From positions 1,648,045 to 1,712,044 of the forward strand of contig SCUJ01000006.1 in assembly GCA_004297165.1 (NCBI GenBank): a stretch of 64,000 nt of DNA, given 5' to 3'. The stretch comes from Gammaproteobacteria bacterium (GTDB taxonomy: Bacteria > Pseudomonadota > Gammaproteobacteria > Eutrophobiales > Eutrophobiaceae). The translations under genes were made by a program, and so were the position numbers. This document shows positions 4,888-27,310 of the stretch, piece by piece (within the stretch, counting starts at the first letter, position 1; each line of letters opens with the position of its first letter). The notes beneath the pieces were generated by a model. That model did not search any database. It was given only the letters and a program-made list of their open reading frames with translations, and was not told where the DNA came from.

Positions 4888-6411
4888 CTACCAGAGATCC
4901 CGCAGGTAATCGATGATCGCCTTGCGCTTCACTGGATCGGCCACCTTCACCGTGGTCATCGCATTGCCGGGGACCAGCGCTTCCGGGTCGGTCAGAAACC
5001 GATCCAGCAATTCCTCCGTCCACACCCCGTCCAGCCCCCGAAAGGCCTCCGAGTAGACATAATCGGTCCGGTCCGCCTGCCTGCGCCCGACGATCATGAA
5101 CAGCGAGGGCGCGAGTCCGCCCGAGGTGACCCCGGTGGTATGACAGCCCGCGCACTCCTGGAAGAGCAGCGCGCCGCTGTCCTGTGATTTGGCCACCGTG
5201 AGCGAGATCAGATCGCCCCGCTCCCCCCACAGCCAGATCGCGCCATCGGGACCCAGCTCGATATCGCGGATGCGCCGCTCGATCGCCAGCGGTTCGGCAT
5301 AGACCACACGGGTCCCGTCCAGTTTCAGCCGGTGCAGGGACCGGCTCGCGAGCCCCGCCACCAGGATATCGCCCTGCCAGGCATCGAACTCGCTGCCTTC
5401 CACACGGATCAGGTTGGAGGCGCCGATCGAGGGCACGAAGGCATAGATCGGTTGTTCGAAACCCGCATGACTCCCCACTTGCGCGGCCGGGGGCCACTGG
5501 TAGCGGCCGTAGTCGGTGCCGTAGGTTACCCGCGGCCAGCCGTAGTCGCGCCCCTCGCGGACCAGGTTGATCTCGTCGCCGCCCCTGGGACCGTGCTCGC
5601 TCTCCCAGATATTGCCGGCTTTATCGATATACAGGCCCTGGGGATTGCGATGCCCCTTGGAATAGATGCGGCCGCTGTGTTTCTCGACATCGATCAGGAT
5701 GACCTTGCCGTACATGTGCGCAACGCTCCCGGCCATGGCGACGGGCTGGTTCCAGCCGTCGTGCTCCTGATCGCCGGTGGTGAACAGCAATTGTCCCGGC
5801 GCGAGCCAGGCCAGCCGCCCGCCCGATTCATGGCCGGCGAAGATGCGCCCGCGATTGCCCTTGTCGAGCGTCATGCATGGCGTCGTGTCATAGATCGTGG
5901 TCCATTCTCCAACCGGGCGCAGGTCACGGCTGAGCTCGATGGCGGAGACGCGCATGACCAGGCAATTCTGCTCAGTGATCCATTGATGATGCGAGGCGAA
6001 CAATTGCCAGCCGGCCGGGCGCTCCCGCACGTTGAGATCGATCACCCGGAAGAATTGCCGGCTGACCACCGGATCGGCGGCGGCGTCAAAGGCGTCCGGG
6101 TCGTGCGGCGTGTCGATGGGTAGACGCTCGGCAGTGATATTGTCATCGGCCTTGCGCACGAGGAAAAACGCCCCGGCCCCTGTGGCGCCGATGTAATCTT
6201 CGCCCACCCGAATAATCGCCCCGCCGGGCTGTTGGGCCTCCGGCGGCAGGAGATTATCGTAGTAATGGACTTCGACGGGGTGATAGGCCGTGCCGAGGAT
6301 CAGGGGGTTCTCTTTCGGGGCCGTCGCGGGTGGAATGGTCTGCGCCTCCAGCAATAACGGCGCGAGCGTCAGTACGATAAGTGCAACCGGGTTCAGGATT
6401 TTATTCTTCAT
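4888..6411 (-). CDS. PQQ-dependent soluble sugar (aldose/sorbosone) dehydrogenase fused to a C-terminal cytochrome c domain
   Basis: 507 aa; signal peptide; beta-propeller glucose/sorbosone dehydrogenase-like body; C-terminal CAGCH heme motif. Confidence 0.8.
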   Translation of the reverse strand: MKNKILNPVALIVLTLAPLLLEAQTIPPATAPKENPLILGTAYHPVEVHYYDNLLPPEAQQPGGAIIRVGEDYIGATGAGAFFLVRKADDNITAERLPIDTPHDPDAFDAAADPVVSRQFFRVIDLNVRERPAGWQLFASHHQWITEQNCLVMRVSAIELSRDLRPVGEWTTIYDTTPCMTLDKGNRGRIFAGHESGGRLAWLAPGQLLFTTGDQEHDGWNQPVAMAGSVAHMYGKVILIDVEKHSGRIYSKGHRNPQGLYIDKAGNIWESEHGPRGGDEINLVREGRDYGWPRVTYGTDYGRYQWPPAAQVGSHAGFEQPIYAFVPSIGASNLIRVEGSEFDAWQGDILVAGLASRSLHRLKLDGTRVVYAEPLAIERRIRDIELGPDGAIWLWGERGDLISLTVAKSQDSGALLFQECAGCHTTGVTSGGLAPSLFMIVGRRQADRTDYVYSEAFRGLDGVWTEELLDRFLTDPEALVPGNAMTTVKVADPVKRKAIIDYLRDLW

Positions 6412-6521
6412 GTTGAGTCACGGGATTTGCGTGAAGGAAGGAGTCTAGCGCATCCGCGGGTTTTGTTTCATCAAATGATGTTATGATTTCCCATCCATTA
6501 CCACATCCAAGGGGACCGGCG

Positions 6522-8264
6522 ATGCGCGACCAAACCCGAATCTCAAGCCATCTGTGGCGCGGCATGCTAATCATATGCTGCATGCTCTGCGGCCACTCCA
6601 TCCAGGCGCAGGACGCCGCCGAACCCACGTACACGGTGCTGAATCCCACCGGCTTCGCGCCGCCCATCGCCCGCAAATCCATGGCCCCCCGACCCGCCGA
6701 TCTGGCGGGAAAGACCATCTATCTCGTGGACGTCACCTTCGACAACGGCGATATGCTGCTGCTGGAGATGCAGAAATGGCTCGCCGCCAACCGCCCGGAG
6801 ATCAAGACCGAATTCCGGGTGAAAAAGGGCTTCTACGCCGCGGATGACCCGGAACTGTGGCAGGAGATGAAGGCCAACAACGGCCTGATGATCATGGCCA
6901 TCGGCCATTGAAGCACCTGCGCCCCGGCGGTCGTCGGGCATGTCGCGGAAGTGGAAAGCAACTTTGGCGTCCCCGCGGTCGGGGTCATCATCAATGTCCT
7001 GGAAGATCTGGTGCATGACAAGGCGCGGGAGGACGGCATGCCCGGACTCAGGCTCGCCTTTACGCCCACGCCTGTGGGCGGCAAGACGTCAGCGGAACTC
7101 GCGGAGTATGTGGCCGGCAACGATCCTCTCTCCGGCAAGCCGCTGATGGCGGAGATCCTCGATCACCTCACCCGTCCGCTGAACGCGGAGGAATCGCTCA
7201 CCGGGGAGATCGCGCGGCCCCGCCCCGCGAGCTTCGGTCCCTTGAGCATGAAGGACCTGCAACGGCAGTTCGACGATAGATTCTGGACCGATCAGCTCCC
7301 CATCATCCCGCCGACGCAGGAGCGGGTCGCCGCGATGTTGCGGCAGACCTCGCACAAGCCGGACGAGGTCATCGGCAGCATGCGCGTGACCAGCGAGCGG
7401 GAGGCGTGGTCCTATACCGTGGAGACCGTCGCCGTGAACGCCGTCATGGCCGGCGCCGCTCCTGAGCATTTCCCCGCGATCCTCGCGCTCGCCGCCGCGC
7501 GCACCAATGCCAAATCGAGTTCGACCTCCTCCATGGCCGCGATGGCGGTCTTCAACGGCCCCATCGTCGAGGAGTTGCAACTCAATTCCGGGACCGGCGC
7601 GCTCGGCCTCTACAACAAGGCCGGGGCCGTGATCGGTCGCGCCTGGAGCCTGCTCTCCGGCAACGTCACCGGCGGGTCCGTGCCGGGGCACACCTACATG
7701 GGCGTGCAGGGCAACCCGATGAGCGCGGTGCCCGCGGTGTTCGCCGAAAACGTCGCCGGCCTGCCGCCCGGCTGGAACCCCATCCACGTGCAGAAGGGCT
7801 TCAAGGCGGATGAGAGCGTGGTCAGCACCTTCTCCGGCTGCCAGAGCCAGAACACCATGATGATCCTCCAGGACGAGGACTGGGAATGGGTGCTGCAACG
7901 CTTCATCGGCGCGCTCGGCCCGCCCAACCGGGGCGACAAGACGCTGCTGGTGGATCCCGCGGTGACCGATCCGTTTCTCCGCTTCGGCTTCGACACCAAG
8001 GAGAAGCTGATCGCGTGGGTCGAGAAAAACGTCACCGTCCCGAAGAAACATTTCTGGCTGGATCAGGAGGTCATCAATTACAAACTGGGGCCGGCCCGGG
8101 CCGGCGTCGAGCCCTTTGCCTCCTGGTTGAAACTGCCCGATGACGCCCCTATCCCCTTCCTGAACAATGTGGAGGTGGTCGTGGTGGGCGGCAGCGGCAA
8201 CGTGCGCTGGAGCGTGAACGAATGCGGCTACCGGACCAGCGTGCGGCTCGCGGACTGGAAGTAA
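6522..8264 (+). CDS. Putative selenoprotein, uncharacterised family (copy 1): single in-frame TGA at 6909-6911 read as selenocysteine in a U-S-T-C motif; N-terminal signal peptide
   Basis: ORFs 6483..6911 and 6951..8264 are in the same frame, separated only by one TGA; second ORF starts with GTG not ATG; peptide across the stop (IGH-U-STCAPAVVG) conserved with paralog at 25148..26776; hairpin 12 nt after TGA; start chosen at ATG 6522 (RBS aagggga) giving MRDQTRISSHLWRGMLIICCMLCGHSIQAQD signal. Confidence 0.6.
6922..6939 (+). ncRNA. Candidate bacterial SECIS-like hairpin in mRNA (stem CCCGGCG/CGTCGGG, one G-U pair) beginning 12 nt downstream of the in-frame UGA
   Basis: Seen directly; same CCCG(A/G)CGGTCGTCGGG element at the equivalent position of the paralog with a compensatory A-U/G-U difference. 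Confidence 0.45.
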
Positions 8265-8269
8265 TCCCG

Positions 8270-9142
8270 ATGCAGATCACGCGCCGGAGATTCTTGCAGG
8301 CCGCCATCGCGGCGCCCGTCGCGTTGGGTCTGCCGACCATGGTCCGCGCCAACCCCTGGGGCGATGCGGGACATCGGATCATCGTCGGCGGCCCCTGGAC
8401 ACCGGGACTGCCGGCAATGGACTCATTTAGGATCATCTTGGCTCCCGCCCCAAGTCTTCAGGCAGGACATCCGCTCGTTGCGGATTCGATACGCGCCGGG
8501 AATGAGGACCTCGCAGCAACCTGCGCGCGCGATCCGCGACGCCTCGCGGGGCTTGCCGCACTCAGCGGGGACCCAAGGCTGGCGGCGCGCGAGCTGGAAC
8601 ATGCGATTGCGCTTGGTCTCAAAGGCGGCGTGTTGCATACCGGTTCGCCGGACGATCAATCCACTACCCGCTTCGATGCCGCCGCGGCTGAGACAGCGGA
8701 GGCCCTGGCGCTGCCTCTCTATCTGCATCCAGCGCCGGCGGCGGGCGTTCTCTCGAGGATACGGCTGCGCCTCCTCGGATTTATCCATGGCGGCCTGCTC
8801 GATCGCCACCCGCAACTGAACCTGATCATCGCCGGCGGCGCGGACCTCGCGGACTGGATCGCGCGCCTCGCCCGAATTGAAGACTCCGGCGTTCTGACCG
8901 GCATGGAGCACCTGCGCCAGGGCAAACGGCTGGAGCGGCGGATTGCCGAATATCTGCGCGCGCAGGTCCATTTCACCAGCGCAGGCATGACCGGGCGCGA
9001 GTCATTGCACAGCGCGGTGGCGGCGGTGGGACCGGGGCGCGTCATGCTTGGTGAGGACAATCACCCTTGGCTCGATGGATTACGATCCGGACGGGATGAA
9101 CAACTCCTGCGCGGGAATGCCTTGCGCGTCTTCAAGTTGTAG
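8270..9142 (+). CDS. Amidohydrolase-2 (TIM-barrel metal-dependent hydrolase) family protein with Tat-type signal
   Basis: Start at MQITRRRFLQAAIAAPVALGLP (twin-arginine motif) 5 nt after upstream stop; C-terminal LGEDNHPW resembles GSDYP motif of PF04909. Confidence 0.55.
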   Translation: MQITRRRFLQAAIAAPVALGLPTMVRANPWGDAGHRIIVGGPWTPGLPAMDSFRIILAPAPSLQAGHPLVADSIRAGNEDLAATCARDPRRLAGLAALSGDPRLAARELEHAIALGLKGGVLHTGSPDDQSTTRFDAAAAETAEALALPLYLHPAPAAGVLSRIRLRLLGFIHGGLLDRHPQLNLIIAGGADLADWIARLARIEDSGVLTGMEHLRQGKRLERRIAEYLRAQVHFTSAGMTGRESLHSAVAAVGPGRVMLGEDNHPWLDGLRSGRDEQLLRGNALRVFKL

Positions 9143-9247
9143 GGGCGAAAGATTTTTTCGTTTCAGGGAACAGAATTAATTCTGTCTCCAAGCACACCTT
9201 CAACAACGCATCCCAATGGCGATTGGGATCAATCAGGAGAAAACGAG

Positions 9248-10714
9248 ATGAGCGTGAATTTTTCCAGCAACCCGATGTTCAATGGGACCTTCAGCGAACC
9301 CTGCAGGGTCGAGGCGGATGTCTTCGACCTCGAGGTCGAGGGCGAATTGCCCGCCGATCTCGACGGGGCGTTCTACCGCGTCCAACCAGATTTCATCTAC
9401 CCGCCGCGTTATGCGAACGATGTCCCCTTCAACGGTGACGGCCATGTCAGCATGTTTCGTTTCGCAAACAGTCATGTGGATTTCAAGTGCCGCTACGTCA
9501 AGACCCAGCGCTACAAGGCGCAGGTCGCGGCCCGCCAGGCGCTGTACGGCACCTACCGCAACCGCGACACCGACGACCCCTCGGTGCGTAAACTGAGCGG
9601 CGGGACCGCCAACACGAATCTCATTTTCCACGCCGGCAAGTTATTCGCGATGAAGGAGGACAGCCCGCCGGTGCGCATCGACCCGCACACCCTGGAGACC
9701 CTGGATGATTACTACACCTTCAATGGCCGGCTGAAGAGCGAGACCTTCACCGCCCATCCCAAGCTCGACCCGATCTCCGGCGAGATGGTTGCGCTCAACT
9801 ACGAGGCCAGGGGCAACGGCTCGCGCGATGTCGCCATCTATTCCTTCGACAAGACCGGTGCGGTCAACTGGGAGACGTGGGTCAAGGTGCCCTACGCCGG
9901 GATGATCCACGACTTCGCCCTGACGCAGAAACACATCGCCTTCCTGGTCATCCCCATGGCGGTGAACATGGAACAGATGAAACAGGGCGGCGTGCATTTC
10001 GCCTGGGATTCCACGCTGCCCACCTGGCTCGGCGTGCTGGAGCGCGGCGGCGATGGCTCGGACCTGCGCTGGTTCAAGGGGCCGGAGCAGAGCGCCACCC
10101 ACGTGCTGAACGGTTTCTCCGACGGCAGCAAGGTCTATCTCGACATGGATATGTCCACGGGCAACCAGTTTCCCTTCTTCCCCATGCTGCACGAGCCCTA
10201 CGACTTTCAACGCGCCGCCGGCCGTCTGACGCGCCTATCCGTGGATCTCGCCGGCAAGGCGGAGACCTATGACAAAGAGATCCTCTATCCCGAGATCGGC
10301 GTACTGCCCCGCGCCGATGAACGCTACTGGTCCCTGCCCTACAAGGTGGGCTTCATGCCGGTGACGAACCTCGCCCGCCCCATGGACCCGGCGCTCACCG
10401 GCAACACCGGCCTCGTGTTGAACACCTGGACCCGCTTCGATCACGACCGCCGCAAGAGCACCGCCTTTCTGGTGGATAACGTCTCCAGCCTGCAGGAATG
10501 CCAGTTCGTCCCGCGCCGTAGCGACGCGCCCGAAGGCGCGGGCTATCTTATCGGCCTGTGCAACCGCCACGTCGAACGCCGCACCGATCTCCTCATCCTC
10601 GACGCCGAACACCTCGATGCAGGCCCCATCGCCACAGTCAAACTCCCACTGCGCCTGCGCAACGGCGTGCATGGGCATTGGGTGGCGGGGGAGGCGTTGC
10701 GGGGAAAGAAATAA
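9248..10714 (+). CDS. Carotenoid cleavage oxygenase family protein (RPE65/lignostilbene-alpha,beta-dioxygenase-like)
   Basis: 488 aa; family-typical length and conserved His-containing segments (FDGDGHV..., HDFALTQKH, ATHVLNGF, HGHWV). Confidence 0.85.
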   Translation: MSVNFSSNPMFNGTFSEPCRVEADVFDLEVEGELPADLDGAFYRVQPDFIYPPRYANDVPFNGDGHVSMFRFANSHVDFKCRYVKTQRYKAQVAARQALYGTYRNRDTDDPSVRKLSGGTANTNLIFHAGKLFAMKEDSPPVRIDPHTLETLDDYYTFNGRLKSETFTAHPKLDPISGEMVALNYEARGNGSRDVAIYSFDKTGAVNWETWVKVPYAGMIHDFALTQKHIAFLVIPMAVNMEQMKQGGVHFAWDSTLPTWLGVLERGGDGSDLRWFKGPEQSATHVLNGFSDGSKVYLDMDMSTGNQFPFFPMLHEPYDFQRAAGRLTRLSVDLAGKAETYDKEILYPEIGVLPRADERYWSLPYKVGFMPVTNLARPMDPALTGNTGLVLNTWTRFDHDRRKSTAFLVDNVSSLQECQFVPRRSDAPEGAGYLIGLCNRHVERRTDLLILDAEHLDAGPIATVKLPLRLRNGVHGHWVAGEALRGKK

Positions 10715-15752: not shown

Positions 15753-15837
15753 TCACGCCCCCCATACGGACCAGAATTGGCCGGCTGTCGCAGTATAGGG
15801 ATGGCAGCCGGTGGGTTGAACAAGCGCCGGGGTGCGT

Positions 15838-16683
15838 TCAGCTTTCTCGATTTGTTATGAAATGCGGCTTACGTTCCCAGGGAGGGATCGGCTGCATGTG
15901 CGATTGCAGAAACTGGACCAGATCGTTGATCAGCGGTTTGTGCAGTTTGACGTTCGGGACCAGCGCCTTCAGCCACAAGCGCCGCAACGGAAACTCTTCC
16001 AGCAGGCTCACGAGGCGGCCGCGTTTCAGGTCCGTCTCCACCACGAAGCGCGGCAGTACCGCAACGCCAATACCAAGCAACGTGGCCTCCCGCAGGACGG
16101 TGGCCTCGTTGACATGGAGTTTGGAATGGATCTCCACCGTCAATGGACCGCGCGGTCCTTCGAAGGTCCAGGATTGCCCCAGCAGGATGGAGGTCAGGCA
16201 CTCATGATCCACGAGGTCGCGCGGTTGCAGCGGCCGGCCTTTCCGCGCCAGATAATCCGGCGCGGCGCACAAGACGAGCTGATAGGGGGTGAGCGGGATA
16301 TCCACTACGTTGGCATAGGAAGTGGGCGCGGCGGCAATCACCAGGTCAAAATTCTCGTCCATGGGATTGACGGAACGATCCACCACGGCGATCTCCAGAC
16401 TCACGCCGGGGTGTGCCGCCTGGAATTCGCAGAACAGCCGTCCCAGATATCTGGTGGTGACCGTGGTCGGGGCCTTGATGCGCAGATGGCCGTTGCTCCC
16501 CTTATGCGCGGACCGGTTGTTCTGGATGATGTCCTCCAGTTCCGTGACCAGCCGCTGATAGCGTGGCAGGATCCGCTCCCCCGCCTCGGTCAGTTTCAGG
16601 CCGCGCGTGGAACGCTGGAACAGTTTCTCGCCCATCTGCCGTTCAAGGCTGGTGATGCGCTTGGTGATGACGGAAGGCGCCAC
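15838..16683 (-). CDS. LysR-family transcriptional regulator (as called from GTG; HTH appears to continue upstream to about 16770 without a canonical start)
   Basis: Substrate-binding domain plus partial HTH (…SVITKRITSLERQMGEKLFQRSTRGLKLTEAGE); upstream in-frame translation continues LILNTLQNIKAFIQVARLASFSAAARELGV until a TAG. Confidence 0.75.
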   Translation of the reverse strand: MAPSVITKRITSLERQMGEKLFQRSTRGLKLTEAGERILPRYQRLVTELEDIIQNNRSAHKGSNGHLRIKAPTTVTTRYLGRLFCEFQAAHPGVSLEIAVVDRSVNPMDENFDLVIAAAPTSYANVVDIPLTPYQLVLCAAPDYLARKGRPLQPRDLVDHECLTSILLGQSWTFEGPRGPLTVEIHSKLHVNEATVLREATLLGIGVAVLPRFVVETDLKRGRLVSLLEEFPLRRLWLKALVPNVKLHKPLINDLVQFLQSHMQPIPPWERKPHFITNRES

Positions 16684-16965
16684 TCCAAGTTCACGGGCGG
16701 CGGCCGAGAAACTGGCGAGCCTCGCGACCTGGATGAAGGCCTTGATGTTTTGCAGGGTGTTCAGGATCAGCTACCTCAAAACGAGAAAACTGTTTGCCAA
16801 TTTTGACACGTTCTCGCGCTACGGATACCTGTCTATTATTACACACCCGCTGAAGGGGTTTTGCGACAATGTTGTATTTCGGTCGCGGCATTAAGATCAA
16901 ATCGAGGACATTCCCTCGCGGGGGGATTAATTCCTGACAGGTATATCCAGCATAGGGGGTTTGGT

Positions 16966-19551
16966 ATGTATCACATGTCAACACACAGGGGCATTACGCG
17001 TATCCTGGCAGCAAGCCTCACGCTATCCGGCCTGATCCTTCCTTCCATGACCAGCGCTCAGGGCACGGTCGAGGAGATTGTGGTCACGGCCCAGTTTCGT
17101 GAAGAAAACATCCAGGATGTGCCGCTATCCATCTCGGCGTTATCGGGGGATTCCCTGGAGTCGAAAAACGCCACGAGCGTGCTGGATATCGAAAAGTGGA
17201 CGCCCAACTTGCAGATCGATCAGCTAGGGTCAGGATGGGGGCCAACCATGGCGGTCAATGCGCGCGGCATGGGCCTGAACGATTTCAAGGCGGTCTTTGA
17301 GCCAGCGGTGCCGATTTACGTGGACGATGTCCTGTTGGGCCGGCCCACGGCTGGCAATCTGGATCTCCTGGACCTCGAGCGCGTGGAGGTCCTGCGTGGA
17401 CCCCAGGGAACCCTGTTCGGCAGCAACGCGGCGGGTGGCGTGATCCGACTGATCACCCGCAAGCCCACCGGCGACGGTCCCACGGTACTCGAAGCTACCA
17501 TGGGCAGCTACAACACCTTCAACACCCGTGGCTCCTTCGAAACCGCCCTCGGCGAGAACCTCTTCGGCCGCTTTTCCTTCTCCACCAAACGCCGGGACGG
17601 TTATGTCGATGTCCTGGACTTCACCTGTGAGATGATCCGTCGCGGCACGCCGCAACTGGCGGGTATCGGTGACGGCCTGGGCGCGGATGGCCCCGATGCC
17701 GGAACGGCACCGGATGTGGTTGTAGCGGGCAGTCCCGAGGATAATGCCTTTGGCATCCCCATACAGACCTCGCCCAACGGCACCAACGAAGGTTGCAAGG
17801 TGGACGAGATGGGGGACGAAGGCATCATTTCCGGAAGAGTGCAGGTCCGCTGGGCAGTGAGTGACTCCCTGGAATTCAATCTGGCCGGCGACGTGATGGA
17901 CATGGATCAGAAGAGCCCGCAGGATCATGTCGCCGATACGGCGGACCAAGCGTCGAACGGCGGCTTTGGTCTGGTTAATAGCAGTAACAATCTGGTGAAC
18001 ATCCCGAATTTCGGAGTACGGTACGATGATCGATTCGCGCCAAGCGATCCTTTCGTCAACTATTCCTCCTTCGTGGATCCCGGGATCACATTTGGCATCC
18101 TCGACCAGGCCGGAAACGCCACCGGACAAAAGATGCGCTATCCGGGGGGAATTCTGACACCCAACACCATGCAGGCAAGGCACTGGGGCGTGAGTGGCGC
18201 CATGGACTGGGCCATCAACGAGACCCTGAACGCCAGGGTGATCCTGGCCTACAGGGAGTTCGATTCCTACTTCGGCCGGGATTCCGATGGTTCACCCATT
18301 CCCCTCAATCATACCGTCGATACCTATAACGATGAGCAGTTCACAGTCGAGGGGCGCCTCAGCGGCCAACTCGCATTGGGATACGGATCGAGCAGTTGGA
18401 CCACAGACTGGACGGCGGGTATATTCTGGTATGACGCCTCGGACTACAACTCCAATATCTCGCTCCTGCACATGGGCGTCATCGGCGCGGGAGACATCGA
18501 TCGCATCGACGACCAGACCAACCAGAAACTGGGGATCTTCCTCCACACCATCACGGAGTTGACGGATCAATGGACCCTGACTGCCGGAGTGCGTTATACA
18601 TCTGATGAGAAGGACATCCTGCAGACGCGCATCAAGCGGATCCTGGAGAACAGGGCCTATGTACCGGCTGACTACCTGTTCCTGCCAACACCCCTGTCCC
18701 AGGACGCGGAACGGGTGACGCCCATGGCCAGTCTCTCCTACCAGTGGAACGACGACATCATGACCTACTTCACCTACCAGCAGGGTTTCCGCGGGGGTGG
18801 CTTCAATCCCAGACCGGCGAACCTGCTTACCATCGGCACATTCAACCCCGAGGAAGTGGAGAATTTCGAACTGGGCATAAAAAGCGACTGGCTGGATCAA
18901 CGTCTGCGCGTAAACGCCAATCTGTTCTACATGGATTATACGGACCTGCAATTGCCGGCCGTGGTGCTTGATCCACTCTCGGGGGTTCCCACCTTCCCGA
19001 CCAAAAATGCGGGTGAGGCTGACATGCTGGGCATCGAGATGGATTTCGTGGCCTATCCGACCGAACACATCTCCATCGATGGCACCTTTGGCTGGTTAGG
19101 ATTTTCCTATGTGGATCTCGGCTCCGCCGATCCGGCGGTTATCGCCAGCTTCCCCGGCGGCGGCGGCACCGCCATCGCCAATCCCTGCCTGGACTGCAGG
19201 CCGCTGCGTTCACCCGAGATAAGCGCCTCGCTGGGGGCGGCCTTCACCACCCCGATTAGCGGCGGGGAATGGGGGAATCTCACCCTGCGCGGCGATGTCT
19301 CCTACCAGTCGGAAACCAACTTCACGGCGAACAACTTTACCCGGGCCAACCAGAGCGCTTATTCCGTGTTCAACGCCCGCGCGACCTGGGTCTCGCCGAC
19401 CGAGGACTGGGAGCTGTCGGTCAGCGGCGCCAACCTGACTGACAAACTCTACAAGACCAGCGTGCTGGATTTCATGGACTCCCTGGGCGGCATCCAGTAC
19501 GGCTATGGTCTGCCGCGGATGGTATTTGGCAGCATCAAGAAACGCTTCTAG
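16966..19551 (+). CDS. TonB-dependent outer-membrane receptor
   Basis: Signal peptide, TonB box/plug (TVEEIVVTAQF…), C-terminal beta-barrel ending …KKRF; RBS aggggg before ATG 16966. Confidence 0.85.
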   Translation: MYHMSTHRGITRILAASLTLSGLILPSMTSAQGTVEEIVVTAQFREENIQDVPLSISALSGDSLESKNATSVLDIEKWTPNLQIDQLGSGWGPTMAVNARGMGLNDFKAVFEPAVPIYVDDVLLGRPTAGNLDLLDLERVEVLRGPQGTLFGSNAAGGVIRLITRKPTGDGPTVLEATMGSYNTFNTRGSFETALGENLFGRFSFSTKRRDGYVDVLDFTCEMIRRGTPQLAGIGDGLGADGPDAGTAPDVVVAGSPEDNAFGIPIQTSPNGTNEGCKVDEMGDEGIISGRVQVRWAVSDSLEFNLAGDVMDMDQKSPQDHVADTADQASNGGFGLVNSSNNLVNIPNFGVRYDDRFAPSDPFVNYSSFVDPGITFGILDQAGNATGQKMRYPGGILTPNTMQARHWGVSGAMDWAINETLNARVILAYREFDSYFGRDSDGSPIPLNHTVDTYNDEQFTVEGRLSGQLALGYGSSSWTTDWTAGIFWYDASDYNSNISLLHMGVIGAGDIDRIDDQTNQKLGIFLHTITELTDQWTLTAGVRYTSDEKDILQTRIKRILENRAYVPADYLFLPTPLSQDAERVTPMASLSYQWNDDIMTYFTYQQGFRGGGFNPRPANLLTIGTFNPEEVENFELGIKSDWLDQRLRVNANLFYMDYTDLQLPAVVLDPLSGVPTFPTKNAGEADMLGIEMDFVAYPTEHISIDGTFGWLGFSYVDLGSADPAVIASFPGGGGTAIANPCLDCRPLRSPEISASLGAAFTTPISGGEWGNLTLRGDVSYQSETNFTANNFTRANQSAYSVFNARATWVSPTEDWELSVSGANLTDKLYKTSVLDFMDSLGGIQYGYGLPRMVFGSIKKRF

Positions 19552-21062: not shown

Positions 21063-24000
21063 TTAGTATGATGCCTTGAAGCCCACGAAGAAGCGGCGAC
21101 CGATGGTGTCGTAATACCCACCGCTATATCCGCCCAGCGTAGGCAGGCTATAGACGCCAGCGCCGCGGCAGCCCGGCGCATCGCCACACAGAGCAGTCGT
21201 GCTGATGTCCGAACCGGGCGCATAGCCGGTTGTACTCGCAAAGTGGTTCGGTTCGATATCTAGCACGTTCGTGATTCCGCCGCGCAGCGCGAACGTCTCG
21301 TTGATGCGCCAGTTAAGTGACAGATCGAGGATATCGTAGCTATCGGTCTTGATCTCCGTGCTTGGCACATAGCCCAATGTGACACCCGGTGCGCCCGCGG
21401 TAACCGCTGCGTTATTCTCGATGATCGCCAGTTGTGACGCTTTTCCTGCGGACCATACAGATGGCAAATGGCGCCACCGCAAGGCGACGTTCCAGTCATC
21501 CAGCGAGTAGCTTAGGGAACTGAAAAACCGATATTCATAAGCCCCAGCCTGAGTCCCAGGGAGGTTTGGTCCCAGCGAACCCTTCCATTCGGTCTCTATG
21601 TCAAACGACGCGGGGGACTGCTTGGTGGTGTAGTAGTCCAGGATCGTGCCCTGCACGCCCAAGCCGAGCCGGCCGGGCACATCTACGCCCAGATCCGCGA
21701 TCTCGCTGGACCAGTTCAGCATAATGTCGAAGCCTGAGGTCTCGATCGTAGCCTGGTTATCATACGAGAGCGTGGTGCTCAGCGAGACGCCGGTGCTGGT
21801 CTGGTCGCGCGGCACCAACCGGCAACCCAGCGTCGCCGCCTGCTCCGCCGCCTCCGCCGCGGTGGTAACGGTACGCGAGCCGAAACAACGGTAATTGGCG
21901 TAATCGATCGAATACGTCATGATGGCGTCCTCGATGTTTACCATCCACCAATCAAGCACCAGATTCACACCGGAAAGCCATGGGTTCTCGAATGGCGAAG
22001 AGAGCACAAAACCGGCCGTCCAGGTGTCTGCCTTCTCCGGTCGCAGTTCCGGGTTACCCTGTTGCAGGATCCATGCAAATCCGCCCCCGCCCGCTTGAGC
22101 GACAGCGTTCGTTACGTTGTAGAACTGGTTCTCCGCCACGCTGCCGGGACCGCCCATCATCTGCTGGCAGATCAAATGCGTACTGTCCGCACCGGCTTGC
22201 GTCTGTCCCGGAGCAAGCGCGGGGAGCGACTCGGTTCCGCTAAGTGTCGGGTCGATGCCGCCCGTGAAGCCGCCGGCGCCGAAAGGCGCGTTCGCGCGCA
22301 CCGAACATGGATCCCCGAAACTGCCGCCGCCGGCTATAATCTCCTGCGGGTTCAGGAACAGCTCGCCCAGGTTCGGTGAGCGTGTGGCGCGGTTATATCC
22401 ACCGCGCAACCGCAGCCAGTCCTTGACCTCCCAACTGCCCAAGAGCTTGTACGTCCACTCCGAGTTGTCCGTCTCATCGTAAATCGAGTAACGGGCGCCC
22501 ATCTCAAGCTCGAACTTCTGCACATACGGCAGGTCTGCCGCCACCGGGATCAGCGCCTCTAAGTAGAAATCATCCGCCATCGTACTAGCATTCAGATAGC
22601 CTGTCGGATAAACGCCAATCACCTCGTCAGTAAAGGACCGCTCCGATTGCAGGACGTCGGGATAAAAGATTCCGTTGACCTTGCGGTGCTGGTATCCCAT
22701 GGCGCCACGGGCCTCCCCGGCCGGCAGGTCATAGACACCGCCTTGCAGGTTCACCTCCACGATATCCTGGCGCATCTCTGTACGTGTCTGCAGCACTGCG
22801 TAGATGGCATCGAGACAGTCCTGCGACATCGGCGCATCGCCAAGAAAATACGTGTCATAGAATCCCGACCCGCAAGTAAAATCTCCCGCGCCGAACGCCC
22901 CCCTGGCAGCATTCACATCCCTTCCCGCCGCTGGAGTGGCGGGCAAGTTATAGATCGGGCCGACCGTATAGACGATATTACCCGTGCCTGAAGCGCCGCG
23001 GCCGTAATCGGGAAGGTTGGTCAAGGCGCGATAACGGGCCAGTGACAGGTTGCCCTCGGCGACGTTATAGACGCCTGACTCCCCATGCGAGGCATACAGC
23101 TCGGCGGTCCAATCGCGGAACGGCAATTCGATGTTGACCCCACCTTCGACTTGCCAAGTCTCATTCGTGTTGTAGGTATTGCGCGGTGGCGTGCTGTACG
23201 ACGGATTCCAGTTCGGAATCCAGTCCGCCGCCTGCTGCGAGGCACTCACCGGCTGACCGTTCCACGTTCCAACGAGTGCCGTATTAGTCGTCGCCCGAGG
23301 ATTAGGCGCCCCACCGGGTAATGTTGCAGAACAACCCGACTGCCCTGTGAGGCAATAAGTTGGCCAGCCCCGGCTGTTTAGCAGGATGGCCAACTCTGTC
23401 GGCACCGGATGATAATTGACAGCAGTACCGATGAGAGTATTGCCAGCGGCAAGCGATACGTTCTTATTGGTAAAATTACTGACTCCAGCAGTCGTACTAC
23501 AACCTGTAGTATTGGCTTGGCAATACTTCCAGGCGCCCGAGCCTGTCGGGATGAAATTCGGGTTGGCGTATGCGGAGGGATTCGCCAGAACTGCGGTAAC
23601 CACCGCCGGATCCGCGAAGTTTAATGCCGGGTTCACGGGACTATCGAACGTCGGGTTATAGGGTACCGAGGTCTCCCAACCGAAGGTCACTGAAGTTGTC
23701 TGCAACAGTGTGCGCGTCCGGCTCTCCGCGAATCTCGCCCCGCCGAAAAGTTCGATTCGGTCGGTCAAGTCGAAGTTTCCCGAGGTGAAAATCGAATACC
23801 GATCCTGCGGAGCGCTCGCATATCCCAAAGTACTGTTCCACTTCAGACCATCGAAAACCGTATTGTTGGTCGGGTCCGTGGCATCGAGAGTTTTCTGTAA
23901 TGCGTAAGTCTGCCCGTCCACAGTGATTTTGTGACGGGATTGTCCGCGGGCGCTGCCCAAGGCAAAGATGGTGCTGTCCGGGTTAATATAGTAGGTGCGG

Positions 24001-24935
24001 GAGTTGCCCACACCGGAGCCCGGAGCAACGTCAAAGTATACCGTCGAACCGGATACGGTAGCTGAGGATCTGCCAAAGGGGCTGCCGCCGCCGAACAACA
24101 CGTTAACAGCAGGCTGAGTCGGGCAATTTTGGTTACAGAAATACGCTCCGACGCCCTTAAGGCCGGTCACGGATGCCGAACCGGTTCGATCGGATGCCCA
24201 GAGGTCCGTATAGATGTCCCGCTCGATCTGGGCGGCTTCCTCCCTCTCGTAGCGTTCCAAACCAACCGTGACATTACCTCGGTCATCGGCTAGATTGGCG
24301 CCTAACGAGGCTGAGATGCGGCTTTCCGTGCCATCGCCAGCCTCGGTGATACCATACTGGCCATCGAACTCGAAGCCCTCGTAATCCTTCCTGGTTATGA
24401 AGTTGGTCACGCCACCCACCGCATCCGCGCCATACACGGAAGAGGCGCCCCCGGTAATCGTCTCCACACGCTGAAGCAGGGCTGAAGGGATGCTGTTGGC
24501 ATCCGTCACCATAAGTGGGTTTACCGGGACAGGTCGATGTCCGTCGAGTAACACCAAGCTTCGGTTGGGGCCAAAGCCGCGAAGCGAGATGGAGGCGATA
24601 CCCACTGAATTCGTCGGGGTGATCTGCACATCGCCTTGCGTAGTCACGGGCGAGGCGGCCGGGTTATATTCCGGCAACTGATTCAGATAAGACTCGACGT
24701 TCAAGCCGGTCTGTTGTTCGAACGCCTCGGACTCGATGGTTACGATTGGGCTGTTCGAGACATAGTCGCGGCGGACGATACGGCTACCGGTGACCGTGAC
24801 CTCCTCCAGATCTTCTCCTTCATCCTGCGCCTGGACGACGACGCCCAAGGAAAGCATGACGAAAGAGGATATTAACGCTTGATAGTACAAAAACCGGCAC
24901 TGACGAAGACAGCAGATGTACAAAGACTTGAACAT
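21063..24935 (-). CDS. Giant TonB-dependent receptor (about 1290 aa), tandem paralog A
   Basis: Signal peptide (…VVVQAQDEG), TonB box EEVTVTGSRIV, plug domain about 90% identical to paralog B, long barrel ending …GFKASY; start at second ATG with GGGGG RBS. Confidence 0.85.
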   Translation of the reverse strand: MFKSLYICCLRQCRFLYYQALISSFVMLSLGVVVQAQDEGEDLEEVTVTGSRIVRRDYVSNSPIVTIESEAFEQQTGLNVESYLNQLPEYNPAASPVTTQGDVQITPTNSVGIASISLRGFGPNRSLVLLDGHRPVPVNPLMVTDANSIPSALLQRVETITGGASSVYGADAVGGVTNFITRKDYEGFEFDGQYGITEAGDGTESRISASLGANLADDRGNVTVGLERYEREEAAQIERDIYTDLWASDRTGSASVTGLKGVGAYFCNQNCPTQPAVNVLFGGGSPFGRSSATVSGSTVYFDVAPGSGVGNSRTYYINPDSTIFALGSARGQSRHKITVDGQTYALQKTLDATDPTNNTVFDGLKWNSTLGYASAPQDRYSIFTSGNFDLTDRIELFGGARFAESRTRTLLQTTSVTFGWETSVPYNPTFDSPVNPALNFADPAVVTAVLANPSAYANPNFIPTGSGAWKYCQANTTGCSTTAGVSNFTNKNVSLAAGNTLIGTAVNYHPVPTELAILLNSRGWPTYCLTGQSGCSATLPGGAPNPRATTNTALVGTWNGQPVSASQQAADWIPNWNPSYSTPPRNTYNTNETWQVEGGVNIELPFRDWTAELYASHGESGVYNVAEGNLSLARYRALTNLPDYGRGASGTGNIVYTVGPIYNLPATPAAGRDVNAARGAFGAGDFTCGSGFYDTYFLGDAPMSQDCLDAIYAVLQTRTEMRQDIVEVNLQGGVYDLPAGEARGAMGYQHRKVNGIFYPDVLQSERSFTDEVIGVYPTGYLNASTMADDFYLEALIPVAADLPYVQKFELEMGARYSIYDETDNSEWTYKLLGSWEVKDWLRLRGGYNRATRSPNLGELFLNPQEIIAGGGSFGDPCSVRANAPFGAGGFTGGIDPTLSGTESLPALAPGQTQAGADSTHLICQQMMGGPGSVAENQFYNVTNAVAQAGGGGFAWILQQGNPELRPEKADTWTAGFVLSSPFENPWLSGVNLVLDWWMVNIEDAIMTYSIDYANYRCFGSRTVTTAAEAAEQAATLGCRLVPRDQTSTGVSLSTTLSYDNQATIETSGFDIMLNWSSEIADLGVDVPGRLGLGVQGTILDYYTTKQSPASFDIETEWKGSLGPNLPGTQAGAYEYRFFSSLSYSLDDWNVALRWRHLPSVWSAGKASQLAIIENNAAVTAGAPGVTLGYVPSTEIKTDSYDILDLSLNWRINETFALRGGITNVLDIEPNHFASTTGYAPGSDISTTALCGDAPGCRGAGVYSLPTLGGYSGGYYDTIGRRFFVGFKASY

Positions 24936-25147
24936 TGAAATTCCCCCCATGGATTGGATCCGTCTCAATCCGGCTTCACTGATAAGCCGAACCAAGATTC
25001 TTTATTACTTCTAGGAGGGATACTACAAAATCCAGTGCTCGGTTGTAAAGCGCTCTTAATTAAAGGGGTCGGAGTGGCGAATCTTGTATTCGCCATGGGA
25101 TAGAGGGCGATCACGAGGATCGCCTCTACGGTTCAGTTCGCGATGTA

Positions 25148-26776
25148 TCACCGCCATTCATCCACTGAAATTGTTTTCAAGTAGGTACCGCTCAGGATCT
25201 TCCACATGGCCCCGGTCTCGCCACCGACCACCACCACGCTGATATCCTCGGGTCGGAACATCTTGAGCGGCGTACCCGGTTCTGCCTTGAGAAAACTCGC
25301 ATACGGCTCGATCCCTGCGACCGCCTGCGGCAGTAGCAGGGTTTGTACCCACTGGTTATCCCAATATTCTCGTGCCGGGAGCAGACTGTTCTCCACGCAC
25401 CACTGGATAAGCTTCTGTTTAGTGTCAAAGCCCCTGTCGACAAAGCCTCTTGCAACCAGAGGGTCCAGCGCCAACACCGGACCGCTATAGGGGTCGCAGG
25501 CCGCGAGTGAACGGCGGAATTTTTCCTCCCAGGTCTCGCGGGGGCCTCCACCGAACTGGATATACCAGCCGCCCATGAACAGGCTCACGGCGCTATCTTC
25601 GGCCTTGTGTCCGTGTTGCACATGAAAGGGTTCCCAGGGGCTGCGTTCCTCGTTTTCCGCGAAGACCGCGCTGTAGGAATGCACGTTTCCCTGCGAGCCC
25701 ATGAAGCTCTCGCTTGGAACCGAGCCTCCCTGGAGATTCTGTGACAAGAGACCGTAGGCGCGGCCGATCGTAGCATTGGCGTGGTTGTAGGGCCCCATGG
25801 CCCCGATGCCGGAGTTCATGTTGATCTCGTTGCGCACCGGCCCGTTGACCATGGCAATCGTCGCCTGCGAGGTCGTACTGCTGGAACGCGCCGTGACGCA
25901 GGAGGCGGCCAGCGCCAGGATGACCGGAAAATATTCAGGCCGGGCCCCGGCCATGACCGCGTTCACGGCGACCTTTTCCACGGTGTATTCCCAGAGCTCG
26001 CGAAACCGGGCGGGTTGCAGGCGGCCCACCACTTTATCCGGGGCATGACTCGTGGCCTTGAGCATTGCCTCGACCCTGGCCTCGGTCGGCAGGACGATGG
26101 GCAGGAAATCCGTCCAGCGGTTCTCCTCGAAACGCTGATACAGGTTATCCTCCGTGTCGGGATCCAGCAGCCTTGGCGTGGAGCGATCGAAATCCATTCC
26201 CGCCTCATCCTCCTGCCGCAAAACGTCGGTGAGACCGTCGATCAGGCGTTTGATGAAGGGACCACCCTCGACCGCATCATCTCCTTCAATGTAGGCGCGC
26301 AGCTCCCCGGCGGATCGACCGACGACAGGTTGCGGTACAAAGGCCTGGCGCAGGGTGGGCAGGCCGTTGACCCTGGCGACGGAACGAACGAGCCGGGTGA
26401 AGACGTGGGTATGGACGGAGACCGTGGGTATGCCGTCCGCCTCCAATGCAATTGCTAGCCCGACGACCGTCGGGCTGCAAGAACTTCAAAGCCCCACGCC
26501 GAGGATAGCCGCATCACCCTCCGCCACGATTATTTCACGCATCGCCGGATCGTCGACCCAGCTTTCATGGGGTTTGATTGTCCGTACGATAACCCGCGGC
26601 AGGTGCTGTTCGAACCAGTCACGCAACTGATTCATGAACACCTCTGAATTGTCGAACAAACAATCCACAAGGTACAGGATCTTCCCGTCCAGGGCCTCGA
26701 GTCTGGGGGCAAGTCGTTTGCCAGAGACTTTCGGTGGATACCCTCTCGGGTCATGGACTCGAATTAATGAAGACAT
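25148..26776 (-). CDS. Putative selenoprotein, uncharacterised family (copy 2): single in-frame TGA at 26486-26488 read as selenocysteine in U-S-S-C motif; no signal peptide
   Basis: ORFs 26486..26776 and 25148..26446 are in the same frame separated by one TGA; downstream ORF begins with TTG; conserved peptide VGL-U-SSCSPTVVG; hairpin AGCCCGACG-GT-CGTCGGGCT 10 nt after UGA (+ coords 26457-26476). Confidence 0.6.
26457..26476 (-). ncRNA. Candidate bacterial SECIS-like hairpin downstream of the in-frame UGA of selenoprotein copy 2
   Basis: Perfect 9-bp inverted repeat containing GGTCGTCGGG core shared with copy 1. Confidence 0.45.
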
Positions 26777-26797: not shown

Positions 26798-27310
26798 TTA
26801 CCTGGCCCGTTTCACATAAATGAACCCGCCTCTGTCCTCGGCTGTCAGTTTGTAGCCGCCACCGAAGATCGTCGGGTAGATTCGCACCCGCTGTCCCACC
26901 GTCAGTTCATAACGCCGGGTGACATGTTGCTGCCAAATTTGGCCGTTCTGCAGAGTAACGATCCAGCCATCCGGACGTTTTTCCAGCGCGGCTATCGTGT
27001 CTACCAATTCAGTCGTTTCTTCAGCTTCCGAATTTCTCTGGCGCGCCATCTCCTGCCGTAGCCTCTGGTTCTCAATCATCAGGCGCTGCGCATCTGCCGC
27101 TTGTGGCTGATTATCTACGAGACTGTCATAACAAGCAGCGCGAGCCGCGATGACCTGGATCGCACGGCACCGATTGAGGGCTTGATCGCTACCTTGTGCG
27201 ACAGCTTCCGTCCAAGTTATTGCAGCAGCGACCAGCAGGAAGGTAGAGGGTATATTCGAACAAAATATTGATGGTTTTTTTTGATGACGTTGTGGTCTTT
27301 GCGGCTTCAT
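26798..27310 (-). CDS. Hypothetical secreted/periplasmic protein with coiled-coil segment
   Basis: 170 aa; hydrophobic signal-like N-region; 21 nt upstream of selenoprotein copy 2 on the same strand. Confidence 0.45.
   Translation of the reverse strand: MKPQRPQRHQKKPSIFCSNIPSTFLLVAAAITWTEAVAQGSDQALNRCRAIQVIAARAACYDSLVDNQPQAADAQRLMIENQRLRQEMARQRNSEAEETTELVDTIAALEKRPDGWIVTLQNGQIWQQHVTRRYELTVGQRVRIYPTIFGGGYKLTAEDRGGFIYVKRAR

What the first reader, a model, noticed from the sequence alone, without database searches (positions are those of the whole stretch)
6483..8264. Gene split by one in-frame TGA inside a conserved U-S-T-C peptide: candidate new selenoprotein family (copy 1)
The two ORF-track ORFs 6483..6911 and 6951..8264 share one frame and are separated only by a TGA at 6909-6911. 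The peptide across the stop (…MAIGH-U-STCAPAVVGHVAEVESNFGVPAVGV…) is conserved residue-by-residue with a paralog 17 kb away that has its TGA at the identical position. The downstream half has no ATG, only GTG. A hairpin (6923-6938, CCCGGCG-GT-CGTCGGG) starts 12 nt after the UGA, as expected for a bacterial SECIS element. UxxC is a classic selenol/thiol redox motif. Gene callers would mis-annotate this as two genes or a pseudogene. I could not assign the 140 aa N-terminal domain or the 437 aa C-terminal domain to any known family. This copy carries a predicted signal peptide.
Basis: partly seen in the sequence, partly recalled or inferred. Interest (0 to 1): 0.9.

Follow-up and report, generated by a model that had tools for sequence, protein, structure and literature searches.

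The report
Mis-split UGSC-family selenoprotein fusion gene
The TGA almost certainly encodes selenocysteine in one 580-residue exported protein that public annotation splits into two "hypothetical proteins", but its selenium-bearing domain belongs to the already known UGSC selenoprotein family, so it is not a new family; only its fused C-terminal domain is uncharacterised.

Summary
6522..8264 (+) is one reading frame with a single TGA at 6909-6911, and a 41%-identical paralogue at 25148..26776 (-) has its TGA at the same column. Of 94 homologous loci (the two window copies included), 86 have TGA there and 8 have TGC (Cys). Full-length Cys homologues exist, such as P0002 with GHCSTC.

The hairpin after the TGA (6 bp, GGUC tetraloop, 11 nt after UGA) fits the published bSECIS model. 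Its synonymous sites are frozen and it shows compensatory changes. It occurs in 81/86 TGA loci and 0/8 TGC loci. In one homologous locus the gene lies beside selA-selB-tRNA-Sec.

The "new family" reading fails. Residues 51-211, spanning the TGA, match Pfam PF24696 (UGSC family; 86 bits, threshold 25). NCBI already names some homologous fragments "UGSC family (seleno)protein", and a UGSC fusion selenoprotein was reported in 2008.

Verdict: a real selenoprotein and a new member of a known kind.

The parts
6522..8264 (+). Complete gene, copy 1: 580 codons including Sec, plus the TAA stop. The likely start is ATG 6522, with AGGGGA at 6510-6515.
   Evidence: Single frame with one TGA. NCBI calls the N-piece from 6522 (TAJ94492.1). 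The full-length Cys homologue P0002 is 76% identical.
6522..6608 (+). Probable Sec-type signal peptide (MRDQTRISSHLWRGMLIICCMLCGHSIQA|QD).
   Evidence: Read from the sequence; no predictor was run. All 14 copy-1-clade orthologues listed carry an equivalent N-terminal extension with a ...AMACAGTAAA|AE-type signal. Copy 2 starts directly at the domain.
6633..7115 (+). UGSC-family domain (Pfam PF24696), which spans the TGA. The model shows a (beta-alpha)5 flavodoxin-like fold, with Sec between strand 3 and helix 3.
6909..6911 (+). Sec-encoding UGA.
   Evidence: TGA in 86 and TGC in 8 of 94 aligned loci. Cys at this column in full-length homologues.
6909..6920 (+). U-S-T-C (UxxC) redox motif.
   Evidence: Motif variants in relatives include USTC, USSC, UGGC, UPGC, CSTC and CGSC.
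6923..6938 (+). bSECIS hairpin: stem 6923-6928 / 6933-6938, GGUC tetraloop 6929-6932, 11 nt after the UGA.
   Evidence: Fold. Codons +4..+9 are synonymously invariant in 17 orthologues, with the window copy showing a compensatory G-C to C-G swap. Covariation. Present in 81/86 TGA loci and 0/8 TGC loci. Meets the published bSECIS constraints (PMC13188914).
7233..8261 (+). C-terminal domain of 343 residues with no family assignment. Conserved motifs include WTDxLPIxxPT, VNAVMAG, NGP, IGRA and FAENE.
25148..26776 (-). Paralogue (copy 2): 542 codons including Sec, no signal peptide, 41% identical to copy 1.
   Evidence: Split in the public record into TAJ94505.1 + TAJ94504.1. PF24696 at 94 bits.
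26486..26488 (-). Sec-encoding UGA of copy 2 (U-S-S-C).
26457..26476 (-). bSECIS hairpin of copy 2: 8-bp stem, GGUC tetraloop at 26465-26468.
   Evidence: The hairpin segment alone (26457-26478) folds at -14.8 kcal/mol, z = -3.45, 0/200 shuffles as stable; the full 42-nt segment after the UGA gives -21.1 kcal/mol, z = -4.17. Copy-2-type loci show CCG..GTC / CCC..GTG / CCT..GTA compensatory synonymous changes.

Best explanation
6522..8264 is a single gene for an exported selenoprotein of about 580 residues.

Recoding. During translation the UGA at 6909-6911 is read as selenocysteine. The mRNA hairpin 6923-6938 (6 bp, GGUC tetraloop, 11 nt after the UGA) acts as a bacterial SECIS that recruits SelB.GTP.Sec-tRNASec. 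The in-frame UGA, the hairpin, its conservation and the Cys/Sec alternation are shown. SelB dependence and selenium incorporation are inferred.

Protein. It consists of a signal peptide, a UGSC-family domain of flavodoxin-like (beta-alpha)5 fold with a U-x-x-C motif after strand 3, and a 343-residue C-terminal domain of unknown fold class.

Most likely mechanism (inferred). The Sec/Cys pair cycles between selenol/thiol and selenenylsulfide. It passes reducing equivalents between a thioredoxin-system partner and a substrate bound by the C-terminal domain, whose conserved D, T, R, N and E residues look catalytic. The partners seen elsewhere are a TlpA-like periplasmic thioredoxin beside the exported forms and a TrxB-like flavoprotein beside the cytoplasmic forms. 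The substrate is unknown.

Copy 2 (25148..26776, minus strand) is the cytoplasmic paralogue and works the same way.
For: One frame, one TGA:
- for copy 1; for copy 2.
- The Pfam UGSC domain spans the TGA, so a stop there would cut a domain in half.

Cys/Sec pairing:
- 86 TGA against 8 TGC at the aligned column in 94 loci.
- P0002 (593 aa, 76% identical) reads GHCSTC.
- Among the 150 best 50%-identity cluster representatives, 63 start just after the column, 20 cover it with Cys and 21 cover it with another residue.
- 119 of the 120 best hits to copy 1, and all 120 to copy 2, are N-truncated pieces of 404-445 aa.

SECIS:
- The geometry meets the published constraints: loop of 3-9 nt, stem of 4-16 bp, G in the first two loop positions, 16-37 nt spacing (here 17), MFE <= -7.5 (for the criteria; for -10.2 and -14.8 kcal/mol).
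- The GGUC tetraloop is the same as in the E. coli fdhF SECIS and sits one nt closer to the UGA.
- Codons +4 to +9 are synonymously frozen in 17 orthologues, while fourfold-degenerate codons just downstream have 1.4-1.8 bits of third-position entropy. The window copy differs at exactly the two paired positions.
- Five of 8 pairs show changes on both sides, and 0/500 shuffles reach the observed covariation score.
- The hairpin is present in 81/86 TGA loci and 0/8 TGC loci.

Sec machinery and the code:
- tRNA-SeC, selB and selA lie directly downstream of the homologue in L081, and selA lies near it in L075.
- TGA is an ordinary stop for 9 of 28 window genes, so there is no global reassignment.

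Redox context:
- A TrxB-like Pyr_redox_2 gene lies within 150 nt downstream on the same strand in L029, L032, L036, L043 and L078, and nearby in 4 more loci.
- An exported WCPPC redoxin, a rhodanese and a CxxC protein flank the exported clade in 14-16 loci.
Against: - No selA, selB, selC or selD lies in the 64-kb window. A SelA search did not return a protein from the host's 1.78-Mb contig. The host's Sec trait is therefore unverified.
- Copy 1's hairpin is not more stable than shuffled sequence (z = -0.02).
- The covariation alignment was pre-selected for at least 4 bp, and its sequences are related, so the shuffle statistics overstate significance.
- The redox-relay function is inferred from neighbours in other genomes. 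The window's own neighbours differ: a PQQ sugar dehydrogenase, a TAT-exported amidohydrolase, a carotenoid oxygenase and a GST.
- 21 of the 41 representatives that cover the column have no Cys or Sec there, so the C-domain's activity cannot universally need the motif.
- N-domain model confidence is modest (pLDDT 55-85).
Confidence: 0.85

Rival explanations
1. This is a new selenoprotein family. Both domains are unrelated to anything described.
For: The C-terminal 343 residues have no Pfam family and no solved structural relative. The window proteins score below the NCBIfam UGSC equivalog cut-off (60 against 125 bits). The motif is USTC/USSC rather than UGSC.
Against: The Sec-bearing domain matches Pfam PF24696 UGSC at 86-94 bits against a threshold of 25. 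More distant full-length relatives carry literal CGSC and score 115-127 bits. NCBI names homologous pieces 'UGSC family (seleno)protein'. A UGSC/Unknown_1 fusion selenoprotein is in the literature.
Confidence: 0.05
2. The TGA is a true stop, and two separate polypeptides are made: a 129-aa exported piece and a 437-aa piece started at GTG 6951. This is how the public record annotates the locus.
For: Databases list the halves separately. The host's Sec machinery is unverified.
Against: The stop would bisect a single Pfam domain. The downstream piece would lack the signal peptide its partner has. The two halves are adjacent, in frame and separated by exactly one TGA in 86 loci, and are fused through Cys in 8 loci and in 20 representative clusters. 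Gene callers choose inconsistent downstream starts, giving products of 408 to 445 aa. The conserved hairpin and frozen synonymous sites have no role under this model.
Confidence: 0.03
3. The UGA is read through, but not as Sec. Either near-cognate Trp/Cys/Arg is inserted, or the hairpin stimulates SelB-independent read-through.
For: No sel genes are visible in the window. One representative cluster shows W at the column (WSTC).
Against: The alternation is specifically with Cys codons (TGC 8; no TGG or CGA among 94 loci). The hairpin matches the SelB-binding GGUC loop type of E. coli fdhF. selA-selB-selC lie next to the homologue in L081. The domain family is an established selenoprotein family.
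Confidence: 0.05
4. It is a pseudogene or an assembly/sequencing error that created a nonsense codon.
For: MAG assemblies contain errors. L013, for example, shows a frameshift shortly after the motif.
Against: Two paralogues in the window and 84 independent loci from other assemblies carry the same TGA at the same column. There are no other disruptions in 580 codons. Purifying selection is evident, with 69-77% amino-acid identity across orthologues.
Confidence: 0.01

Closest known systems
UGSC family (seleno)proteins (Pfam PF24696; NCBIfam NF041046; 'UGSC-containing protein' of Zhang & Gladyshev, e.g. Hyphomonas neptunium ABI76733.1)
   Same: The Sec-bearing domain is homologous (PF24696 at 86-94 bits). 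The UxxC motif sits at the same place. Sec forms greatly outnumber Cys forms, as reported for GOS (255 Sec against 21 Cys). Function is unknown in both.
   Different: The canonical members modelled by NCBIfam are short (the NF041046 profile is 147 positions) and carry literal U-G-S-C. Here the motif is U-S-T-C or U-S-S-C, the score is below the NCBIfam equivalog cut-off (60 against 125 bits), and the domain is fused to a 343-residue C-terminal domain. Copy 1 is also exported.
UGSC/Unknown_1 fusion selenoprotein described from the Global Ocean Sampling metagenome (PMC2398784, Fig. S1A)
   Same: [quoted passage not shown]
   Different: I could not establish whether 'Unknown_1' is this C-domain. 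The figure panel is an image and the sequence supplement is truncated before the UGSC section. The paper suggested a thioredoxin-like fold for UGSC, whereas the model here is flavodoxin-like.
E. coli fdhF SECIS (the type bacterial SECIS)
   Same: Both are hairpins inside the coding sequence just after the UGA, with a GGUC apical tetraloop. The loop is at nt 21-24 here and nt 22-25 in fdhF, counted from the U of UGA. From general knowledge, not tested here: the minimal fdhF element starts 11 nt after the UGA, as this one does.
   Different: The stem here is fully paired and more GC-rich. fdhF has a bulged U in the upper stem and a longer lower helix. Binding by the host's SelB is untested.
Thioredoxin-fold UxxC/CxxU selenoproteins (Trx-like, Prx-like, DsbA-like)
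   Same: They share a UxxC redox motif at the start of a helix, and thioredoxin-system genes are their neighbours.

Membership tests
Bacterial selenoprotein gene (Sec-UGA recoding) | In-frame UGA inside an otherwise uninterrupted, conserved coding frame | tested here: met
   Homology continues on both sides of the TGA.
Bacterial selenoprotein gene (Sec-UGA recoding) | Homologues with Cys aligned to the UGA, and UGA conserved in orthologues of other organisms | tested here: met
   86 TGA and 8 TGC among 94 loci. P0002 reads GHCSTC. 20 representative clusters have Cys at the column.
Bacterial selenoprotein gene (Sec-UGA recoding) | bSECIS consensus: apical loop 3-9 nt, upper stem 4-16 bp, G in the first two loop positions, 16-37 nt between UGA and loop, MFE <= -7.5 kcal/mol (PMC13188914) | tested here: met
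   Loop GGUC; stem 6 bp (copy 1) and 8 bp (copy 2); spacing 17 nt; -10.2 and -14.8 kcal/mol for the hairpin segments. Comparative support.
Bacterial selenoprotein gene (Sec-UGA recoding) | selA, selB, selC and selD present in the same genome | not testable with these tools
   None lies in the window. The rest of the 1.78-Mb contig is out of reach, and the SelA search did not recover it. Indirect support: selA-selB-tRNA-SeC lie next to the homologue in L081.
Bacterial selenoprotein gene (Sec-UGA recoding) | Selenium actually incorporated at the site | not testable with these tools
   Needs 75Se labelling or mass spectrometry.
UGSC family (Pfam PF24696) | Score above the Pfam gathering threshold over most of the model | tested here: met
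   86 bits against 25, model positions 1-160 of 172. Isolated N-domains score 89.7 and 94.2 bits.
UGSC family (seleno)protein, NCBIfam NF041046 (equivalog) | Score above the curated cut-off of 125 bits | tested here: not met
   60.5 bits for copy 1. The downstream pieces alone score 15.7 and 25.3 bits. The gene is a domain-level relative, not an equivalog of the stand-alone protein.
UGSC family (seleno)protein, NCBIfam NF041046 (equivalog) | Literal U/C-G-S-C motif | tested here: not met
   U-S-T-C and U-S-S-C here. UxxC spacing is kept. More distant fused relatives carry CGSC.
UGSC/Unknown_1 fusion selenoprotein (PMC2398784) | The fused domain is the published 'Unknown_1' domain | not testable with these tools
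   The alignment is only an image and the sequence file is cut before the UGSC entries.
Thioredoxin-fold UxxC oxidoreductases | Thioredoxin fold with the motif at the N-terminus of helix 1 | tested here: not met
GrdB/PrdB reductase selenoproteins (PF07355) | Sequence match to the GRDB family | tested here: not met
   No PF07355 hit at E<=10. The only trace is an E=0.064 match of a distant relative (P0302) to TIGR01917 around its Sec site.

The most novel reading that the evidence does not exclude
The 343-residue C-terminal domain is a new enzyme fold. Together with the flavodoxin-like U-x-x-C domain it forms a previously uncharacterised, very widespread class of soil and freshwater selenoenzymes. 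The Sec/Cys pair, recharged by a dedicated TrxB-like or TlpA-like partner, would drive reduction of a still unknown substrate. That substrate may be sulfur-containing, given the rhodanese neighbours. Exported and cytoplasmic paralogues coexist in one genome.
Probability: 0.3. Interest if true: 0.6.

Novelty: new member of a known kind. Interest (0 to 1): 0.33.

Why it matters
Annotation. Two genes of this MAG, and more than 200 listed homologues out of roughly 10,000 database matches, are recorded as pairs of truncated "hypothetical proteins". Joining them at the Sec codon recovers the true 540-590-residue products. It also shows that the UGSC domain mostly occurs here fused to a large conserved domain that no family library or solved structure covers.

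Biology. The family is abundant in Acidobacteria and Gammaproteobacteria from soil and groundwater. About 90% of sampled members use Sec rather than Cys. It has a cleanly defined SECIS and recurrent thioredoxin-system neighbours. That makes it a tractable entry point for assigning a function to one of the most common selenoprotein families still of unknown function. It does not change any concept of Sec decoding.

Tried and rejected
1. Rfam. There were no hits at gathering score in the window. A relaxed scan of 6860-7010 gave only a chance flpD match at E 8.6. Nothing in Rfam reached threshold for this hairpin.
2. Thermodynamic z-scores as a SECIS test. They were uninformative for copy 1 (z = -0.02), and mean MFE did not separate TGA from TGC loci (-13.3 against -12.6). 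The genuine fdhF SECIS also scores only z = -1.33. I therefore relied on position-specific hairpin presence, synonymous-site conservation and covariation.
3. Host Sec machinery. I found no tRNA or sel genes in the window. A SelA protein search returned 120 hits, none on the 1,783,802-bp contig.
4. Identity of 'Unknown_1' from the 2008 paper. It could not be read.
5. The AFDB fold library was unavailable, so the only structural comparison is with the PDB.
6. A PDB sequence search with the family profile found nothing better than E 0.6.
7. A GrdB/PrdB relationship was considered and not supported.
8. I screened the window for further Sec candidates. Of 65 TGAs with open frames on both sides, only the two known sites have a conserved UxxC context with homology across the stop.
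9. The window's own neighbours (GSDH, amidohydrolase, RPE65, GST, TonB receptors) are not conserved next to homologues, apart from a weak GSDH match in L001.
Full report
**What is in the sequence.**
- Translation of 6483-8264 gives 594 codons with one internal stop, the TGA at 6909-6911, in the context MAIGH-*-STCAPAVVGH.
- The most likely start is ATG 6522. AGGGGA lies 6 nt upstream, and NCBI's own call for the upstream fragment starts there. That makes the product 580 residues.
- A second gene on the minus strand, 25148..26776, has an in-frame TGA at 26486-26488 in ILGVGL-*-SSCSPTVVGL.
- The two proteins are 41% identical over 549 residues.
- ORF geometry alone proves nothing. 65 TGAs in this 59%-GC window have at least 60 open codons on both sides in some frame.

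**The TGA column alternates only with Cys.**
- I collected 14 loci from species-representative genomes (13 Acidobacteria MAGs and one 5.3-Mb contig) and 80 metagenomic loci.
- Each was aligned to the segment around the motif. Of 94 resolvable loci, the two window copies included, 86 carry TGA and 8 carry TGC.
- P0002 is a full-length 593-residue homologue, 76% identical, and reads GHCSTC.
- Among the 120 best database hits to copy 1, 119 are pieces of 408-445 residues that begin shortly after the column. All 120 best hits to copy 2 are such pieces.
- Among the 150 best representatives of 50%-identity clusters, 63 start just after the column, 20 cover it with Cys and 21 cover it with another residue.
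- The window organism uses TGA as an ordinary stop in 9 of 28 genes, so the codon is not globally reassigned.

**The hairpin behaves as a SECIS.**
- In copy 1 the fold is a 6-bp stem (6923-6928 / 6933-6938) closed by a GGUC tetraloop.
- Eleven nt separate the UGA from the stem, and 17 nt separate it from the loop.
- This meets all four constraints of the published bSECIS model: loop 3-9 nt, stem 4-16 bp, G in the first two loop positions, and 16-37 nt spacing with MFE <= -7.5 (PMC13188914).
- The E. coli fdhF SECIS has the same GGUC tetraloop one nt further from the UGA. I confirmed its sequence in 5419 genomes.
- Stability alone is not evidence. Copy 1 scores z = -0.02 against shuffles, copy 2 scores z = -4.17, and fdhF itself only -1.33.

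**The comparative evidence for the hairpin is what carries the case.**
- In 17 orthologues of copy 1 (69-77% protein identity), the six fourfold-degenerate codons +4 to +9 are synonymously invariant. Comparable codons a few positions downstream have 1.4-1.8 bits of third-position entropy.
- The only exception is the window copy. It changes GCG to GCC at +4 and GGC to GGG at +9, turning a G-C pair into C-G.
- Across subfamilies, pair 18-27 is GC:51, CG:7, UA:1. Pair 15-30 is CG:21, GC:20. Pair 19-26 is GC:21, GU:20, AU:18. None of 500 shuffles reaches the observed covariation score.
- Two caveats apply to that test. The alignment was pre-selected for at least 4 bp, and the sequences are related.
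- A hairpin of at least 4 bp in one of two registers is present in 81 of 86 TGA loci and in none of the 8 TGC loci.

**Sec machinery.**
- The window has no tRNA genes, no Rfam hits and no sel genes.
- The window comes from a MAG labelled Gammaproteobacteria bacterium, on a 1,783,802-bp contig. I could not reach the rest of that contig, and a SelA search did not recover it. This refutation test therefore remains open.
- Indirectly, in locus L081 the TGA-containing homologue is followed immediately by tRNA-SeC, selB and selA. L075 also has selA nearby.

**What the protein is.**
- Residues 51-211, numbered from 6483 and spanning the Sec, match Pfam PF24696 "UGSC family" at 86 bits against a threshold of 25. 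The isolated N-domains of the two copies score 89.7 and 94.2 bits.
- NCBIfam NF041046 "UGSC family (seleno)protein", an equivalog model 147 positions long, is matched only at 60 bits against a cut-off of 125. The gene is thus a domain-level relative, not an equivalog.
- UGSC-containing proteins are one of the most abundant selenoprotein families in ocean metagenomes (255 Sec against 21 Cys forms), and their function is unknown. The same paper reports a "UGSC/Unknown_1" fusion selenoprotein (PMC2398784). I could not verify that Unknown_1 is the present C-domain.
- NCBI already names some homologous fragments "UGSC family (seleno)protein". The window's own four fragments are "hypothetical protein".
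- The claim of a new selenoprotein family is therefore not supported.

**Structure.**
- The full-length model of P0002 has mean pLDDT 76. It gives the N-domain a (beta-alpha)5 order, with the motif between strand 3 and helix 3.
- The C-domain has no Pfam hit at E<=10, and the family profile has no PDB sequence relative at E<=0.6.
- Across 26 diverse full-length relatives, the invariant or near-invariant C-domain residues include D270, T278, N381, R386 and E422. They sit in the motifs WTDxLP, PT, NATIGRA and AENE.

**Localisation and context.**
- Copy 1 and the 14 orthologues listed carry an N-terminal extension with signal-peptide features. Copy 2 starts directly at the domain. No signal-peptide predictor was available.
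- In the Acidobacterial orthologues the gene is flanked in 14-16 loci by three exported proteins: a TlpA/AhpC-type redoxin (WCPPC), a rhodanese, and a 182-residue protein with a CYVC motif.
- In other subfamilies, both Sec and Cys forms, a thioredoxin-reductase-like gene (Pyr_redox_2, 310-340 residues) follows within 150 nt on the same strand in five loci and lies nearby in four more.
- Tandem paralogues occur in eight loci.
- The window's own neighbours differ. Upstream and divergent lies a PQQ sugar dehydrogenase. Downstream there are a TAT-signal amidohydrolase starting 6 nt after the stop, a carotenoid oxygenase and a GST. Copy 2 lies between two very large TonB-dependent receptors.

**Mechanism.**
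- Shown: there is one gene, a Sec/Cys column, a conserved and covarying hairpin of SECIS type, and a UGSC-family domain fused to an unassigned domain.
- Inferred: SelB-dependent Sec insertion.
- Also inferred: a selenol/selenenylsulfide relay between a thioredoxin-system partner and a substrate handled by the C-domain.
- Against the universality of that relay, about half of the representatives that cover the column lack Cys or Sec there.

**Verdict.** This is a real selenoprotein gene, mis-annotated and present in two copies. It is a new member, in fused architecture, of the known UGSC kind. The remaining interest lies in the uncharacterised C-terminal domain and in the unknown function of the family.

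Noticed in passing
L081:6731-9744 (minus strand); L075:9192-10115: tRNA-SeC (anticodon TCA), selB (670 aa) and selA lie immediately downstream of a TGA-containing homologue of copy 2. A second locus has selA nearby. A selenoprotein gene placed beside the Sec machinery is unusual and supports Sec decoding.
   Followed up: yes
L029:2086-3027, L032:4787-5719, L036:6647-7642, L043:4301-5287, L078:6625-7653: A thioredoxin-reductase-like gene (Pyr_redox_2, with a CASC motif in L029) follows the fusion gene within 150 nt on the same strand, in both Sec and Cys forms. This looks like a two-gene redox module.
   Followed up: partly
L001:3770-5340 (minus); L095:5601-7214 (minus); L003-L014 at about 7750-9300 (plus): The Acidobacterial orthologues of copy 1 share conserved synteny with three exported proteins: a WCPPC redoxin, a rhodanese with an unusual YCACNDHED active-site region, and a family-less 182-aa protein with ICYVCEF.
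   Followed up: partly
window 21063-24995 (-) and 27426-31187 (-): Copy 2 sits between two very large TonB-dependent receptors (1310 and 1253 aa). A third receptor (896 aa) is at 16861-19551. The 170-aa ORF 26798-27310 (-) directly upstream of copy 2 has no family.
   Followed up: no
window 8270-9142 (+): An Amidohydro_2 protein with a twin-arginine-type signal (MQITRRRFLQAAIAAP...) starts 6 nt after the stop of copy 1, so the two are probably co-transcribed. An Amidohydro_2 gene also lies next to the copy-2-type gene in L096. It shows no detectable similarity to the window's amidohydrolase at E<=1e-8, and it matches L002 and L026 only weakly (24-30% identity).
   Followed up: partly
window 16804-16806: The 324-aa ORF 15832-16806 (no Pfam family) ends in TGA, in the context KTVCQF*, and is in frame with the TonB receptor ORF that starts at 16861. 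This is most likely two adjacent genes sharing a frame, not a Sec site.
   Followed up: no
L013, at about 6298-6400: The orthologue in MAG CAVXGM010000010 loses the frame about 20 codons after the Sec codon (...GIPAVGRHHQCS). This is either a frameshift error in the assembly or a decaying copy.
   Followed up: no
One of representatives P0241-P0390: One 50%-identity cluster representative has W at the Sec column (WSTC). This could be a TGA translated with a Trp-reading code by the source pipeline, or a real TGG.
   Followed up: no
L039, L045, L048, L050, L074, L082, L083, L094: A second member of the same fusion family lies within a few kb of the first, so tandem or nearby paralogues occur. Having several copies per genome, as in this window, is therefore common.
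   Followed up: no
window 51414-52283 (+) and 54146-54973 (-): There are two PEP-CTERM-anchored proteins, and a LytTR two-component system lies at 49354-51170.
   Followed up: no
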